15,352 nt of DNA from a virus (IMGVR_UViG_2558860274_000010:1-15352); one strand, 5' to 3'; positions 7,366-11,243 are shown, counted from the stretch's first letter. Notes: generated from the sequence alone by a model not told the origin. A program made the numbers and translations.

Positions 7366-7572
7366 ATGGAAAAAATCACAACGGGTGTGTCATACACCAC
7401 GTCAGCGGTGGGGACGGGATACTGGTTACTGCAGCTGCTGGACAAAGTCTCTCCGTCCCAGTGGGTGGCAATCGGTGTGCTGGGGAGTCTGCTGTTTGGC
7501 CTGCTGACGTATCTGACTAACCTTTATTTCAAGATTAAAGAAGATAAGCGTAAGGTGGCGCGGGGAGAGTAG
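7366..7572 (+). CDS. class II holin, phage-21 S21-type pinholin
   Basis: 68-aa ORF closely resembling the phage 21 pinholin as recalled (two TMDs, GYW and [14 protein letters not shown] motifs, C-terminal [13 protein letters not shown]). GGAGA ribosome-binding site upstream. Confidence 0.85.
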
Positions 7573-7827
7573 TCGATGAATAAACAATACGAACTGGTTG
7601 TAAAATGAATATTTCTAACTGAAAAAACGTTCCATGAGGTAAGAAAAGGTCACAGGCAATCAATAACAGGACGTGATGAAAGACCCTTGCATTTGTGCGC
7701 TTTCTCTTTAGATAGCAGCAGATACTGAAAATCTGAGTTGTCGGGGAGTCAGGGATACAGCTGTGCAAGAGTTGGTCATTGTGATTCCATTGAAATCCTG
7801 TATGCCATGAAGGGCAGGATTTTATGG

Positions 7828-8142
7828 CTACCTGAGCTTTGGTGATAGTAAGTTGAAAATTCGCATTTTTTGCTGACATGCGTAACGAGAATCCCATAAG
7901 CAGGGAGGACTTAATTCTTCATTAACCCATGCGTTGATATTATGTTTCAGCCGTTGAAGCATCAGCGGTGTTAATGTTGTGGTAATAATATCCAGCGTTT
8001 TATGTGAGATCTTACCGTAAGGGTCTGCAAGAATGCTGCTTGTTGCTTCGTTATTATCTGCCATCAGAAGAAGTAACTCTGATTTAACGTTTTCTGTCAT
8101 TAGTTGTAAAAATCTTCTGCGCAAACTTTCTTTACTGTTCAT
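7828..8142 (-). CDS. hypothetical protein (104 aa) between holin and endolysin
   Basis: Minus-strand ORF in a ~600-bp AT-rich segment with no counterpart in canonical S-R cassettes. No obvious Shine-Dalgarno and no family recognised. Confidence 0.35.
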   Translation of the reverse strand: MNSKESLRRRFLQLMTENVKSELLLLMADNNEATSSILADPYGKISHKTLDIITTTLTPLMLQRLKHNINAWVNEELSPPCLWDSRYACQQKMRIFNLLSPKLR

Positions 8143-8181
8143 TTATATGGCTTCATTTGTTGTAATCTGCTGCGTCTCAAG

Positions 8182-8189
8182 GGATATGT
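8182..8189. repeat. IS66-family target site duplication, left copy (GGATATGT)
   Basis: An 8-bp sequence immediately outside the left terminal inverted repeat, identical to the 8 bp at 10632-10639. Confidence 0.8.
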
Positions 8190-8260
8190 GTAAGCGTACA
8201 GCCTGAACCGTCTGGTCAGAATCTGACGAATTAGACAAAGTGGTGTCCACCAAATAAGTA

Positions 8261-8662
8261 GTGGGAACCAAAGTATCAGATATGCAGAAAAATGTGACTC
8301 CCGGCAGGCGAAAAGGCTGCCCTAATTATCCTCCCGAATTTAAACAGCAGCTCGTTGCTGCCTCCTGTGAACCCGGGATATCCATCTCAAAACTTGCTCT
8401 TGAAAATGGCATTAACGCCAATCTGTTGTTCAAATGGCGACAACAATGGCGCGAGGGAAAGCTGCTATTACCTTCTTCAGAGAGCCCCCAGCTACTTCCT
8501 GTGACTCTCGATGCAGCTGCCGAACAGCCAGAATCGCTCGCAGAGGACCCGGAAACCCTCAGTATCAGCTGTGAGGTAACGTTCCGGCACGGGACGCTCC
8601 GCTTCAATGGCAATGTCAGCGAAAAGCTCCTGACTCTGCTGATACAGGAACTGAAGCGATGA
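8261..8662 (+). CDS. IS66-family accessory protein TnpA (orfA)
   Basis: First ORF of the IS66 unit; its stop overlaps the orfB start (ATGA at 8659). The true start may be the internal ATG at 8282. Confidence 0.7.
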   Translation: MGTKVSDMQKNVTPGRRKGCPNYPPEFKQQLVAASCEPGISISKLALENGINANLLFKWRQQWREGKLLLPSSESPQLLPVTLDAAAEQPESLAEDPETLSISCEVTFRHGTLRFNGNVSEKLLTLLIQELKR

Positions 8663-9006
8663 TCCCGTTACCTTCCGGGACCAAAATTTGGCTGGTTGCC
8701 GGTATCACCGATATGAGAAATGGCTTCAACGGCCTGGCTGCGAAAGTACAAACGGCGCTGAAAGACGATCCCATGTCCGGCCATGTTTTCATTTTCCGGG
8801 GCCGCAGCGGCAGTCAGGTTAAACTGCTGTGGTCCACCGGTGACGGACTGTGCCTCCTGACCAAACGGCTGGAGCGTGGGCGCTTCGCCTGGCCGTCAGC
8901 CCGTGATGGCAAAGTGTTCCTTACGCAGGCGCAGCTGGCGATGCTGCTGGAAGGTATCGACTGGCGACAGCCTAAGCGGCTGCTGACCTCCCTGACCATG
9001 CTGTAA
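8659..9006 (+). CDS. IS66-family TnpB (orfB)
   Basis: 115-aa ORF in the conserved middle position, overlapping orfA and typical in size and composition for IS66 orfB. Confidence 0.75.
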
Positions 9007-9055
9007 ATCTCTTTATCCTGGTTGTCACAGAATAAGCCCGGTAAAATACGGGCTT

Positions 9056-10594
9056 ATGAACGACATCTCTTCTGACGACATCTTCCTGCTGAAACAGCGC
9101 CTGGCCGAACAGGAAGCGCTGATCCACGCCCTGCAGGAAAAGCTGAGCAACCGGGAGCGCGAAATAGACCATCTGCAGGCGCAGCTGGATAAACTCCGCC
9201 GGATGAACTTCGGCAGTCGTTCCGAAAAAGTCTCCCGCCGTATCGCACAAATGGAAGCCGATCTGAACCGGCTTCAGAAAGAGAGCGATACGCTGACTGG
9301 TAGGGTGTATGACCCGGCAGTACAGCGTCCGTTGCGTCAGACCCGCACCCGTAAGCCGTTCCCTGAATCACTACCCCGTGACGAAAAGCGACTGTTGCCT
9401 GCGGCGCCGTGCTGCCCGAACTGCGGCGGTTCACTGAGCTATCTGGGCGAGGATACCGCCGAACAGCTGGAGTTGATGCGTAGCGCCTTCCGGGTTATCC
9501 GGACGGTACGGGAAAAACATGCCTGTACTCAGTGCGATGCCATCGTGCAGGCACCTGCACCTTCGCGGCCCATCGAGCGGGGTATCGCCGGACCGGGGCT
9601 GCTGGCCCGCGTGCTGACCTCGAAGTATGCAGAGCACACCCCGCTGTATCGCCAGTCAGAAATATACGGCCGGCAAGGTGTGGAGCTGAGGCGTTCACTG
9701 CTGTCGGGCTGGGTGGATGCATGCTGCCGGCTGCTGTCTCCGCTGGAAGAGGCGCTTCATGGCTATGTCATGACTGACGGCAAACTCCATGCCGATGATA
9801 CCCCGGTCCAGGTACTGCTGCCGGGTAATAAGAAGACGAAGACCGGGCGGTTGTGGGCGTATGTTCGTGATGACCGCAATGCAGGGTCAGCGTTGGCACC
9901 TGCAGTGTGGTTCGCTTACAGCCCGGACAGAAAAGGCATCCATCCGCAGACTCATCTTGCCTGCTTCAGCGGTGTGCTGCAAGCGGATGCGTACGCCGGG
10001 TTCAACGAGCTGTATCGCAATGGTGGGATAACGGAAGCTGCCTGCTGGGCTCATGCCCGCCGAAAGATCCACGATGTGCACGTCCGCATCCCGTCAGCAC
10101 TGACGGAAGAAGCCCTGGAGCAGATCGGTCAGTTGTACGCCATAGAGGCGGATATAAGGGGAATGCCGGCAGAGCAGCGGCTTGCTGAACGTCAGCGAAA
10201 AACGAAACCGTTGTTGAAATCCCTGGAAAGCTGGTTGCGTGAAAAGATGAAGACCCTGTCGCGACACTCAGAGTTGGCGAAGGCGTTCGCGTACGCACTT
10301 AACCAGTGGCCGGCACTGACGTACTATGCGAACGATGGCTGGGTGGAAATCGACAACAACATCGCTGAAAATGCCCTGCGGGCGGTCAGTCTGGGTCGTA
10401 AAAACTTCCTGTTCTTCGGCTCTGATCATGGTGGTGAGCGGGGAGCGCTACTGTACAGCCTGATCGGGACGTGCAAACTGAATGACGTGGATCCAGAAAG
10501 CTACCTTCGCCATGTGCTTGGCGTCATAGCAGACTGGCCGGTCAACCGGGTCAGCGAACTGCTTCCGTGGCGCATAGCACTGCCAGCTGAATAA
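9056..10594 (+). CDS. IS66-family transposase TnpC (orfC)
   Basis: 512-aa ORF with an N-terminal heptad/leucine-rich coiled segment, a CxxC...CxxC zinc-finger-like motif (CPNCGG...CTQCD) and a DDE-type core. Ends 37 bp before the right inverted repeat. Confidence 0.8.
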
Positions 10595-10631
10595 CACATC
10601 CCCGTCAATACGGCCCTCGCTGTACGCTTAC

Positions 10632-10639
10632 GGATATGT
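10632..10639. repeat. IS66-family target site duplication, right copy (GGATATGT)
   Basis: Identical 8-mer immediately outside the right inverted repeat. Confidence 0.8.
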
Positions 10640-10709
10640 TTATGAGAGCGACCATGAGTGTTGGATTATATACCTAACATATCAAGGGATTAGAAATCGA
10701 TAAATCCCC

Positions 10710-11243
10710 ATGAACGAAAAAATAAAATACGGCCTGTCGGCTGCCGTTCTGGCGCTGATTGGTGCAGGTGCTTCTGCGCCTGAAATCCTCGACCAGTTTC
10801 TGGATGAAAAGGAAGGTAACCACACCACGGCATACCGTGATGGTGCGGGGATCTGGACCATCTGCCGTGGTGCCATTCTGGTGGATGGTAAGCCTGTTAT
10901 TCCTGGCATGAAGCTGTCAAAGGAAAAATGCGACCGGGTTAATGCCATCGAACGTGACAAGGCGCTGGCATGGGTGGAGAAAAACATCCGGGTGCCGCTG
11001 ACCGAACCCCAGAAAGCGGGGATCGCGTCATTCTGTCCGTACAACATTGGCCCCGGTAAGTGCTTCCCGTCGACGTTTTATAAACGAATTAATGCAGGCG
11101 ATCGAAAAGGTGCCTGTGAGGCGATTCGCTGGTGGATTAAGGACGGTGGCAGAGACTGCCGTATCCGTTCAAATAATTGCTACGGTCAGGTCTCACGGCG
11201 TGACCAGGAGAGCGCGCTGGCGTGCTGGGACATCGACAGATAG
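10710..11243 (+). CDS. SAR endolysin (T4-lysozyme-type with N-terminal signal-anchor-release domain)
   Basis: N-terminal Gly/Ala/Ser-rich weakly hydrophobic segment (GLSAAVLALIGAGASA) followed by a catalytic E-x8-D-x5-T triad (EGNHTTAYRDGAGIWT), as in the phage 21 R21 lysozyme. Confidence 0.85.
   Translation: MNEKIKYGLSAAVLALIGAGASAPEILDQFLDEKEGNHTTAYRDGAGIWTICRGAILVDGKPVIPGMKLSKEKCDRVNAIERDKALAWVEKNIRVPLTEPQKAGIASFCPYNIGPGKCFPSTFYKRINAGDRKGACEAIRWWIKDGGRDCRIRSNNCYGQVSRRDQESALACWDIDR

What the first reader, a model, noticed from the sequence alone, without database searches (positions are those of the whole stretch)
7366..11243. Lysis cassette split: pinholin separated from its SAR endolysin by a reverse ORF and an intact IS66-family element
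In phage-21-type cassettes the pinholin and SAR endolysin genes are adjacent. Here the holin ends at 7572 and the endolysin starts at 10710, with a 617-bp AT-rich segment carrying a reverse ORF and then a 2442-bp IS66-family element in between. The IS carries a perfect 8-bp target duplication, so it is a simple and probably recent insertion, about 70 bp upstream of the endolysin start. Endolysin and spanin expression from the late transcript is therefore likely polar-blocked, which together with the truncated terminase gene suggests a lysis-defective, domesticated prophage.
Basis: partly seen in the sequence, partly recalled or inferred. Interest (0 to 1): 0.6.

Follow-up and report, generated by a model that had tools for sequence, protein, structure and literature searches.

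The report
ISEc8 insertion in prophage lysis cassette
A common E. coli jumping gene (ISEc8) has recently landed just upstream of the cell-wall-degrading enzyme gene of a decayed lambda-like prophage; this is an ordinary event, and published experiments on an identical copy suggest it does not switch lysis off.

Summary
The parts are a P21-type holin (7366-7572), a 617-bp AT-rich segment with a reverse ORF (7828-8142), an intact 2442-bp ISEc8 (8190-10631) with a perfect 8-bp duplication GGATATGT, and a SAR-type lysozyme (10710-11243) followed by Rz/Rz1.

Two parts of the interpretation do not hold.

- **The reverse-ORF spacer is not damage.** With the IS and one duplication copy removed, the sequence matches many E. 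coli genomes at 100.0% over 1851 bp, and 624 genomes cover at least 80% of it. The isolated phage Stx2-86 carries a homologue of the reverse ORF at the same place and in the same orientation.
- **A polar block is unlikely.** The IS reads the same way as the late genes and has no terminator-like site on that strand. An identical ISEc8 copy (0/2442 mismatches) sits in the same orientation in stx2A of strain 9000, upstream of holin and lysozyme. That strain lyses on the same schedule as its IS-free derivative.

The prophage is defective for another reason. The small terminase gene is truncated and joined directly to tccP/espJ, so the particle genes are missing. ISEc8 insertions in lambdoid late regions are common. 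This exact site is new but unremarkable, and interest is low.

The parts
1157..1711 (+). Late-gene antiterminator Q (DUF1133 / Q-like). It is the presumed driver of the late transcript that runs through the lysis cassette.
   Evidence: Pfam PF06576 E=6e-103 and PF06530; phrog_753 'anti-termination protein Q-like' E=8e-78.
7284..7310 (+). Native terminator-like hairpin with a T-run just upstream of the holin.
   Evidence: 11-bp stem, 6 GC pairs, T-run. It lies in the part of the reconstructed empty site that matches many genomes at 100%.
7366..7572 (+). Class II holin of the phage 21 S family (predicted pinholin), 68 aa, with a single start codon.
   Evidence: PF04971 E=1.9e-32 over the full profile; phrog_9876/phrog_20 holin. 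There is a weakly hydrophobic first segment and a strongly hydrophobic second one.
7573..8189 (.). 617-bp AT-rich (39.2% GC) moron-like segment native to this cassette type.
   Evidence: GC content. Contiguous with holin and lysozyme at 100% identity in IS-free genomes.
7828..8142 (-). Reverse ORF of 104 aa: a small all-helical protein of unknown function (phrog_1853).
   Evidence: phrog_1853 E=3.5e-47. The 104-aa form, including the N-terminus, is conserved in homologues of 64-79% identity. AF2 pLDDT is 85 with five helices. No Pfam, NCBIfam, PADLOC or fold match. A homologue sits at the same position in phage Stx2-86.
8182..8189 (.). Left copy of the 8-bp target-site duplication GGATATGT.
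8190..10631 (+). ISEc8 (IS66 family), 2442 bp, intact, with genes co-directional with the lysis genes.
   Evidence: 0/2442 mismatches to the copies in strain 155 and strain 9000. RefSeq names the same proteins ISEc8.
8190..8211 (.). Left terminal inverted repeat of ISEc8.
   Evidence: (I1).
8282..8662 (+). tnpA (IS66 accessory protein).
   Evidence: PF01527; NF047595; identical to WP_001171554.1 as translated from L002.
8659..9006 (+). tnpB (IS66 Orf2).
   Evidence: PF05717 E=1e-38; NF033819; identical to the FRIK944 copy.
9056..10594 (+). tnpC, the DDE transposase of the IS66 family, 512 aa.
   Evidence: PF03050 E=2e-106 plus zf-IS66, LZ_Tnp_IS66 and IS66_C; NF033517; identical to the FRIK944 copy.
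10610..10631 (.). Right terminal inverted repeat of ISEc8.
10632..10639 (.). Right copy of the target-site duplication GGATATGT.
10640..10709 (.). Remaining 70 bp of the native divergent intergenic region upstream of R. It holds a perfect minus-strand TATAAT (10670-10665), a candidate promoter element of the reverse ORF that is now separated from it by the IS.
   Evidence: Own promoter scan. This is weak, consensus-only evidence.
10710..11243 (+). Endolysin R, a GH24 lysozyme with an N-terminal SAR-like domain, 177 aa, intact.
   Evidence: PF00959 E=8e-24. Homologous to R21 (3HDE, E=1.6e-16, aligned from residue 9) and RrrD (4ZPU). E35-x8-D44-x5-T50 motif; residues 8-23 are 69% G/A/S/T.
11333..11365 (+). 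Native terminator-like hairpin between R and Rz.
   Evidence: 15-bp stem plus T-run; present in IS-free relatives.
11579..12046 (+). Rz (i-spanin), intact.
   Evidence: PF03245 E=1e-48; N-terminal TMD; RefSeq 'lysis protein' in relatives.
11799..11984 (+). Rz1 (o-spanin lipoprotein) embedded in Rz.
   Evidence: PF06085 E=1.7e-21; lipobox VSAC.
13462..13797 (+). Truncated small terminase (Nu1) ORF. Homology to the tccP/espJ locus begins at 13734.
   Evidence: phrog_57 matches only profile positions 3-70 of 199. The tccP block starts at 13734. In the usual arrangement tccP is flanked by tail-fibre genes.

Best explanation
The region is the late or lysis module of a degraded lambdoid prophage. 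Its native gene order is Q ... holin S (P21-type, predicted pinholin), a divergently oriented moron ORF of unknown function, a SAR-type endolysin R, a small ORF, then Rz/Rz1.

A single intact copy of ISEc8 (IS66 family) has transposed recently into the 117-bp divergent intergenic region between the moron ORF and R. It duplicated GGATATGT and lies in the same orientation as the late genes. No lysis gene is interrupted.

Late transcription in such phages is driven by Q-modified, terminator-resistant RNA polymerase, and the operon already contains several native terminator-like hairpins. The IS is therefore most likely transcribed through, and R and Rz/Rz1 remain expressible if the prophage is induced.

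The element's more probable local effect is on the moron ORF. Its start codon is now only 47 bp from the IS end, so at least part of its native promoter region has been moved 2.45 kb away.

The prophage cannot make particles for a different reason: a deletion fuses the 5' part of the small terminase gene to the tccP/espJ effector locus.

Shown: the anatomy, the clean insertion, the intact genes, the native status of the moron, and the deletion. Inferred: read-through of the IS, by analogy with an identical IS in strain 9000, and loss of the moron's promoter.
For: Anatomy and clean insertion.

Native status of the holin, reverse ORF and lysozyme order: the reconstructed empty site matches at 100.0% over 1851 bp in several genomes, and 624 of 5,426 genomes cover at least 80% of it. 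The IS-free O55:H7 RM12579 prophage has the same order followed by terminase and head genes. Phage Stx2-86 has S, YdfR, a reverse-ORF homologue on the opposite strand, then R. Other phage records have a gene between S and R.

IS intact and young: 0/2442 mismatches to other copies and canonical proteins. The exact junction is absent from 5,426 complete genomes.

Against polarity: there is no plus-strand terminator-like site inside the IS, while native ones lie at 2127, 4495, 7284 and 11333. Strain 9000 carries an identical ISEc8 in the same orientation inside stx2A, upstream of stx2B, holin and lysozyme. Fitzgerald et al. 2019 (PMC6776261) report that 9000 and its IS-free derivative 9000R both start lysis at 90 min and complete it at 180-210 min. 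That lysis depends on the Stx2a phage, and stx2B is induced in both strains. Asadulghani et al. 2009 (PMC2669165) note that Sp5 has an IS upstream of its lysis region yet is transferable.

Suppression of polarity by lambda Q (Forbes and Herskowitz 1982) is established knowledge cited from memory.

Deletion of morphogenesis genes.
Against: No expression data exist for this strain. The Q here (DUF1133 type) differs from the Q of the Stx2a phage of strain 9000, and I did not locate pR' or qut, so antitermination efficiency could differ. The 9000 data measure culture lysis and stx2B RNA, not R transcript levels, so a modest reduction could go unnoticed. Whether this prophage can be induced at all cannot be seen in the window. 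An IS2 fragment further upstream (about 5140-5722) also sits in the late operon. The promoter argument for the moron rests only on consensus matching.
Confidence: 0.75

Rival explanations
1. One reading: the IS is strongly polar. Endolysin and spanin are then no longer expressed from the late transcript and the prophage is lysis-defective.
For: A 2.4-kb foreign insert lies 78 bp upstream of R. IS elements are classically polar in ordinary operons (general knowledge). The prophage shows other signs of decay.
Against: An identical IS in the same orientation, upstream of S and R in strain 9000, leaves lysis timing unchanged and the downstream stx2B inducible. The IS has no plus-strand terminator-like site. 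The operon natively contains terminator-like hairpins and so presumably depends on Q antitermination anyway. Sp5, with an IS upstream of its lysis genes, is still transferable.
Confidence: 0.15
2. The functional target of the insertion is the reverse moron ORF. The IS cuts it off from its promoter, silencing a gene normally expressed in the lysogen, and the lysis genes are bystanders. This is compatible with the best explanation.
For: The 104-aa reading frame with its N-terminus is conserved in diverged homologues, which places the start at 8142, only 47 bp from the IS. The best -10 element on that strand (perfect TATAAT, 10670-10665) lies on the other side of the IS. No outward promoter-like site was found at the IS left end.
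Against: Promoter prediction is weak: the -35 matches only 3/6 with a 19-bp spacer. No transcription data exist. RefSeq annotates a shorter 90-aa form starting at 8100. The ORF's function is unknown, so no phenotype can be predicted.
Confidence: 0.35
3. The position is not random. ISEc8 repeatedly hits the holin-endolysin interval, either through target preference or because hosts with attenuated prophage lysis are selected (domestication).
For: There are independent ISEc8 insertions with their own duplications. One lies 67 bp away in the same intergenic region in OkiPb01684. Others lie in ydfR between S and R in the O157:H7 FRIK944 group and inside the lysozyme gene in strains 155 and 2013C-4974. 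The duplications GGATATGT and GGATGTGT are similar, and 7 of 9 start with GAT, GGA or GGT.
Against: These cases were found by searching with ISEc8 plus lysis genes, so ascertainment is biased. The same search also found ISEc8 upstream of holins, in nanS-p-type genes, in Nu1 and in stx2A. That pattern fits a general abundance in prophage late regions. No genome-wide insertion-site statistics were possible.
Confidence: 0.15
4. Read-through from the IS's own transposase transcript gives low constitutive expression of the SAR endolysin in the lysogen. This would make the insertion a gain of expression rather than a loss.
For: tnpC ends 37 bp before the IS end, with no terminator-like site between it and R. 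SAR endolysins can cause slow lysis without a holin (general knowledge, Xu et al. 2004).
Against: No promoter-like site reads out of the IS right end. Transposase genes are normally very weakly expressed. Appreciable constitutive endolysin would be deleterious. There are no data.
Confidence: 0.05

Closest known systems
stx2A::ISEc8 in the Stx2a prophage of E. coli O157 strain 9000 (Fitzgerald et al. 2019, PMC6776261)
   Same: The ISEc8 sequence is identical (0/2442 mismatches). It has the same orientation relative to the Q-driven late operon and lies upstream of a P21-family class II holin and the lysozyme gene, with a perfect 8-bp duplication.
   Different: There the IS interrupts a coding gene (stx2A), 4 kb upstream of the holin. 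Here it is intergenic, between the holin and the endolysin. The Q type is different, and that phage is otherwise intact and inducible.
ISEc8 insertion in E. coli OkiPb01684 (NZ_AP042519.1)
   Same: The same prophage type at about 99.5% identity, the same 117-bp intergenic region between the reverse ORF and R, and the same orientation.
   Different: It is an independent event 67 bp further right, with the duplication GATAAATC ending 3 nt before the R start codon. The IS copy differs at 5 positions.
Phage 21 / DLP12 lysis cassette (S21 pinholin, R21 or RrrD SAR endolysin, Rz/Rz1)
   Same: The holin family is the same (PF04971). The endolysin is homologous to R21 and RrrD, including the N-terminal SAR region and the catalytic triad. 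The spanin is embedded Rz/Rz1.
   Different: S and R are not adjacent: a 617-bp moron with a divergent ORF lies between them natively. The holin has a single start codon rather than the S21 dual-start motif (the upstream in-frame codons are ATA CAT CAG). R is about 30% identical to R21 by my estimate from the alignment, and closer to the Stx-phage R type.
Stx2-converting phage 86 lysis region (NC_008464)
   Same: It has a homologue of the reverse ORF (53% identity, also 104 aa) placed divergently directly upstream of R, between S and R.
   Different: It also carries a 268-aa YdfR-family gene between S and the reverse ORF, has ant between R and Rz, and has no IS.
Defective lambdoid prophages of O157 Sakai, such as Sp4 with Nu1::ISEc8 and Sp5 with an IS upstream of the lysis genes (Asadulghani et al. 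2009, PMC2669165)
   Same: They are lambdoid prophages carrying T3SS effectors and Pch regulators, riddled with IS insertions and deletions, with complete lysis gene sets retained.
   Different: The insertion site here is not one described there. Here the morphogenesis genes are deleted rather than interrupted.

Membership tests
IS66 family / ISEc8 | Three co-directional genes: tnpA, tnpB and a DDE transposase tnpC with IS66-specific domains | tested here: met
   PF01527, PF05717, PF03050, PF13005, PF13007 and PF13817; NF047595, NF033819 and NF033517 above cut-off.
IS66 family / ISEc8 | Terminal inverted repeats and an 8-bp target-site duplication | tested here: met
   22-bp IRs beginning GTAAGCG and the duplication GGATATGT. 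Eight other ISEc8 copies also have 8-bp duplications.
IS66 family / ISEc8 | Sequence identity to elements annotated as ISEc8 | tested here: met
   0/2442 mismatches to the copies in strains 155 and 9000, whose transposase RefSeq names 'IS66-like element ISEc8 family transposase'.
Phage 21 S-type class II holin (pinholin) | Sequence membership in the P21 holin S family | tested here: met
   PF04971 E=1.9e-32, profile positions 1-63 of 64.
Phage 21 S-type class II holin (pinholin) | Two transmembrane segments, the first weakly hydrophobic (SAR-like) and the second strongly hydrophobic | tested here: met
   Residues 4-24 are 52% G/A/S/T. Residues 33-50 give the hydropathy maximum of 2.25. This is sequence-level evidence only.
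Phage 21 S-type class II holin (pinholin) | Dual-start motif giving antiholin and holin forms | tested here: not met
   There is a single ATG at 7366, and the three in-frame codons upstream are ATA CAT CAG. RefSeq annotates the same 68-aa form in relatives.
Phage 21 S-type class II holin (pinholin) | Formation of small heptameric pinholes that depolarise the membrane without releasing folded endolysin | not testable with these tools
   This needs biochemistry. The literature treats Stx-phage holins of this family as predicted pinholins (PMC10462455).
SAR endolysin (R21 / P1 Lyz type) | Phage lysozyme (GH24) catalytic domain with an E-x8-D/C-x5-T triad | tested here: met
   PF00959 E=7.6e-24; the motif EGNHTTAYRDGAGIWT starts at residue 35.
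SAR endolysin (R21 / P1 Lyz type) | N-terminal weakly hydrophobic signal-arrest-release domain rich in Gly/Ala/Ser/Thr, preceded by basic residues | tested here: met
   Residues 8-23 (GLSAAVLALIGAGASA) are 69% G/A/S/T with hydropathy 1.9, against 3.3 for the Rz TMD; K4 and K6 lie upstream. The alignment to full-length R21 (3HDE) and RrrD (4ZPU) starts at residue 9.
SAR endolysin (R21 / P1 Lyz type) | Sec-dependent membrane tethering and activation on release | not testable with these tools
   Requires experiment.
Two-component spanin Rz/Rz1 (embedded) | An i-spanin with an N-terminal TMD and an o-spanin lipoprotein gene embedded in another frame | tested here: met
   PF03245 and PF06085; Rz TMD hydropathy 3.3 and the Rz1 lipobox VSAC.
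Lambdoid late operon under Q antitermination | A Q gene upstream, with lysis genes downstream on the same strand separated by terminators | tested here: met
   Q at 1157-1711. Plus-strand terminator-like sites at 2127, 4495, 7284 and 11333. The order is colinear with the intact RM12579 prophage.
Lambdoid late operon under Q antitermination | An identifiable pR' promoter and qut site | tested here: inconclusive
   The consensus scan found no convincing promoter between 1711 and 1820. I did not analyse this further.
Phage moron | An insert of lower G+C, autonomously oriented, not needed for the phage cycle and present or absent among relatives | tested here: met
   39.2% GC, on the opposite strand. 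The S-R slot holds different genes in different phages, and none in 933W.
Phage moron | Its own promoter and terminator | tested here: inconclusive
   Only a weak consensus candidate was found, and no minus-strand terminator-like site between 7573 and 7828.

The most novel reading that the evidence does not exclude
The short interval between the holin and endolysin genes of P21-type lysis cassettes may be a recurrent landing site for ISEc8. At least three independent events were seen: this window, OkiPb01684 67 bp away, and the FRIK944 group in ydfR, plus two insertions inside R itself. This could reflect a loose target preference (duplications often start GGAT or GAT) or selection for prophages whose lysis or moron expression is dampened. 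If so, this would be one visible step in prophage domestication.
Probability: 0.15. Interest if true: 0.4.

Novelty: new member of a known kind. Interest (0 to 1): 0.15.

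Why it matters
It matters little beyond annotation. The result warns against reading every IS in a lambdoid late operon as a polar knock-out, and against treating a gene between S and R as damage, since that slot is a normal moron site. For this strain, it means the prophage that carries the virulence cargo (tccP, espJ, a PerC/Pch regulator) still has a complete and probably expressible lysis set. It could therefore still contribute to lysis on induction, although it cannot make particles. 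If ISEc8 insertions in the S-R interval turn out to be enriched, the locus would be a convenient natural series for studying how hosts tame prophage lysis.

Tried and rejected
- **Reverse ORF function.** I looked in Pfam, NCBIfam and PADLOC and found nothing. PHROGs gave only an unknown-function family. The big protein database returned 16 unnamed E. coli hits. An AF2 model (pLDDT 85) searched with Foldseek against PDB and BFVD gave no match below E=1. The afdb50 library was unavailable.
- **Rfam.** No RNA family lies in 7366-11243.
- **Promoters.** No outward-reading promoter was found at either IS end, and no convincing promoter for R or the reverse ORF, only weak consensus hits.
- **Same junction elsewhere.** I found none. 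The one full-coverage hit (OkiPb01684) proved to be a different insertion 67 bp away.
- **Source strain.** No complete genome covers at least 80% of the window. A metagenome scaffold shares the Nu1-tccP junction but ends before the lysis region.
- **Holin and endolysin from different elements.** I considered this and rejected it because of the 100% empty-site matches.
- **IS orientation.** I rejected using the shared orientation of ISEc8 across hits as evidence, because the search tool joins only same-strand pieces.
- **Literature.** A search for ydfR with holin and endolysin found nothing.

Full report
**Observation.**
- A 68-aa ORF at 7366-7572 is a phage 21 S-family class II holin (PF04971, E=1.9e-32).
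- The next 617 bp (7573-8189) are 39.2% G+C, against 52-54% for the lysis genes. They carry a 104-aa ORF on the opposite strand (7828-8142).
- From 8190 to 10631 lies a 2442-bp element with 22-bp terminal inverted repeats beginning GTAAGCG. It has three co-directional genes with the IS66 signatures TnpA, TnpB and DDE_Tnp_IS66. It is flanked by a perfect 8-bp direct repeat GGATATGT.
- A 177-aa phage lysozyme starts at 10710, 78 bp after the last IS base. It is followed by a small ORF and by Rz with embedded Rz1.

**Identity and age of the IS.** RefSeq annotates identical proteins as ISEc8 TnpA, TnpB and transposase. The window's copy has 0 mismatches in 2442 bp to the copies in E. coli strains 155 and 9000, and 1 mismatch to FRIK944. 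The element is therefore intact.

Removing the IS and one copy of the duplication gives an 1851-bp sequence that matches several E. coli genomes at 100.0%; 624 of 5,426 complete genomes cover at least 80% of it. Against the IS-free prophage of O55:H7 RM12579, the two flanks are colinear at 99.4-99.7% and overlap by exactly the 8 duplicated bases.

A 141-bp probe across the left junction found no complete genome with this junction.

**The reverse-ORF segment is native, not a disruption.**
- The holin, reverse ORF and lysozyme order is the unbroken state in hundreds of genomes. This includes RM12579, whose prophage continues into intact terminase, portal and capsid genes.
- The ORF belongs to phrog_1853, of unknown function. 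Homologues of 64-79% identity keep the same 104-aa length and N-terminus.
- An AlphaFold model is confident (pLDDT 85) and all-helical, but matches nothing in PDB or BFVD.
- A 53%-identical homologue lies at the same place and in the same divergent orientation, directly upstream of R, in the isolated phage Stx2-86.
- Other phage records carry a YdfR-family or other gene between S and R, whereas 933W has S and R adjacent.

The S-R junction is therefore a normal moron slot, and adjacency of pinholin and SAR endolysin is not a rule for this group.

**The lysis genes.**
- The endolysin has the features of a SAR endolysin: a GH24 domain, the E35-x8-D44-x5-T50 triad, and an N-terminal segment (residues 8-23) that is 69% Gly/Ala/Ser/Thr and only moderately hydrophobic. 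It is homologous to R21 (3HDE) and RrrD (4ZPU), with the alignment starting in that N-terminal segment.
- The holin has the two-segment layout of S21 but only one start codon, so the S21 dual-start feature is not met.
- The literature treats Stx-phage holins of this family as predicted pinholins (PMC10462455).
- S, R, Rz and Rz1 are all intact.

**Does the IS block the endolysin?** I think this is unlikely, for four reasons.
1. The IS genes point the same way as the late genes, and a terminator scan finds no plus-strand terminator-like site inside the IS.
2. The late operon already contains strong native terminator-like hairpins on the plus strand, at 2127, 4495, 7284 (just before S) and 11333 (between R and Rz). 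Expression of S, R and Rz must therefore depend on Q-modified, terminator-resistant polymerase in any case. A Q gene is present at 1157-1711. That lambda Q suppresses polarity is established knowledge (Forbes and Herskowitz 1982, from memory).
3. There is a close experimental precedent. I built a chimeric probe of stx2A joined to the ISEc8 left end and found it, in one piece, in strain 9000. There, an ISEc8 with 0/2442 differences from the window's copy sits in the same orientation inside stx2A, upstream of stx2B, the holin and the lysozyme. Fitzgerald et al. 2019 report that strain 9000 and its IS-free derivative 9000R both begin lysis 90 min after mitomycin C and finish at 180-210 min. This lysis requires the Stx2a phage, and stx2B downstream of the IS is induced in both strains.
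4. Asadulghani et al. 2009 note that Sakai Sp5 has an IS upstream of its lysis region yet is transferable.

The caveats are a different Q type here, no direct R measurements in the precedent, and no knowledge of whether this prophage can be induced.

**A more likely local casualty.** The conserved start of the reverse ORF (8142) is only 47 bp from the IS. In the reconstructed empty site, the best -10 element on that strand is a perfect TATAAT at 10670-10665, which now lies on the far side of the IS. The insertion may therefore have detached the moron from its promoter. This rests on consensus matching only.

**State of the prophage.**
- The ORF at 13462-13797 matches only the first 70 of 199 positions of the small-terminase profile.
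- From 13734 the sequence becomes the tccP/espJ effector locus.
- In the usual arrangement tccP is flanked by tail-fibre, Lom and J genes next to zinT. Essentially all morphogenesis genes have therefore been deleted here.
- One metagenome scaffold shares this junction.
- Upstream, an IS2 fragment (TnpA plus the first 71 residues of TnpB) replaces the 5' third of the DUF6645/esterase-type gene.

The prophage is thus a decayed carrier of virulence cargo, but its defect is in particle formation, not demonstrably in lysis.

**Context.** ISEc8 insertions in lambdoid late regions are frequent, and each listed case except the Nu1 one (whose left end was not recovered in the locus) has its own 8-bp duplication:
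- 67 bp away in the same intergenic region in OkiPb01684, with the duplication GATAAATC ending 3 nt before the R start;
- in ydfR between S and R in the FRIK944 group;
- inside lysozyme genes in strains 155 and 2013C-4974;
- upstream of holins or esterase genes;
- in Nu1 (also Sakai Sp4);
- in stx2A.

Because these were found by searching with ISEc8 plus lysis genes, they do not prove enrichment.

**Verdict.** This is a new insertion site of a well-known IS in a well-known cassette type. The 'split' by the reverse ORF is a normal feature, and the proposed polar block is contradicted by the best available experimental analogue. Interest is low.

Noticed in passing
L001 (NZ_AP042519.1 OkiPb01684) 10158-12599; corresponds to window about 10706: There is an independent ISEc8 insertion in the same 117-bp intergenic region of the same prophage type, 67 bp to the right of the window's site. 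Its duplication GATAAATC ends 3 nt before the endolysin start codon, and the orientation is the same.
   Followed up: yes
window 8182-8189, and L001-L008 and L014 IS flanks: The duplications of nine independent ISEc8 insertions are GGATATGT, GATAAATC, GGATGTGT, GATTGATG, GGTAACGT, TGCCGTGG, ACTGAAAC, GGTATTTT and GATACAGA. Seven of nine begin with GAT, GGA or GGT, and the window's differs from the FRIK944 one by a single base. This may reflect a loose target preference.
   Followed up: partly
window 13462-13797, junction at 13734: The small terminase gene is cut after about 70 profile positions and joined directly to the tccP/espJ locus. Elsewhere tccP is flanked by tail-fibre, Lom and J genes beside zinT, so the whole morphogenesis block is deleted. 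No complete E. coli genome has this junction, but the ENA metagenome scaffold L020 does.
   Followed up: yes
window 13784-14374 (-) and 14699-15352 (-): These encode the T3SS effectors TccP/EspFU (three EspF-type proline-rich repeat matches) and EspJ (NF033643, E=1.6e-123), the virulence cargo of this prophage remnant.
   Followed up: partly
window 5142-5722, fused ORF 5510-6919: An IS2 fragment is present: a full-length match to TnpA (NF006928, 121/121 positions) plus only the first 71 residues of TnpB. It is fused in frame to the 3' two-thirds of a DUF6645/SASA-esterase-type gene. This is a second IS scar in the late operon, upstream of the holin.
   Followed up: partly
window 4336-4525 (+) and 4518-4886 (-): An Rfam STnc100 sRNA (130 bits) lies immediately next to an IraM-like anti-adapter ORF (NF007393, E=7e-48) on the opposite strand, in an AT-rich block (about 31% GC). 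That block is absent from the RM12579 reference prophage.
   Followed up: no
window 3390-3639: Only two of the usual three late-region tRNAs are detected, tRNA-Met/Ile(CAT) and tRNA-Arg(TCT). The middle argN-like segment (3473-3549) differs at about 20 positions from the tRNA-Arg(TCG) of RM12579. Neither ARAGORN nor Rfam calls it.
   Followed up: partly
window 12512-12826 (+): A PerC-family regulator (a Pch-like homologue; PF06069, E=4e-44) lies between the lysis genes and the terminase remnant. It is conserved in the related prophages.
   Followed up: no
window 7363-7368: The holin has a single ATG. The in-frame upstream codons are ATA CAT CAG, so the dual-start (antiholin/holin) motif of S21 is absent. 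RefSeq annotates the same 68-aa form in related prophages.
   Followed up: partly
window 11425-11577 (+): A small conserved ORF (phrog_4493, E=1.4e-24, unknown function) lies between the endolysin's terminator-like hairpin and Rz. RefSeq annotates a 37-aa version in relatives.
   Followed up: no
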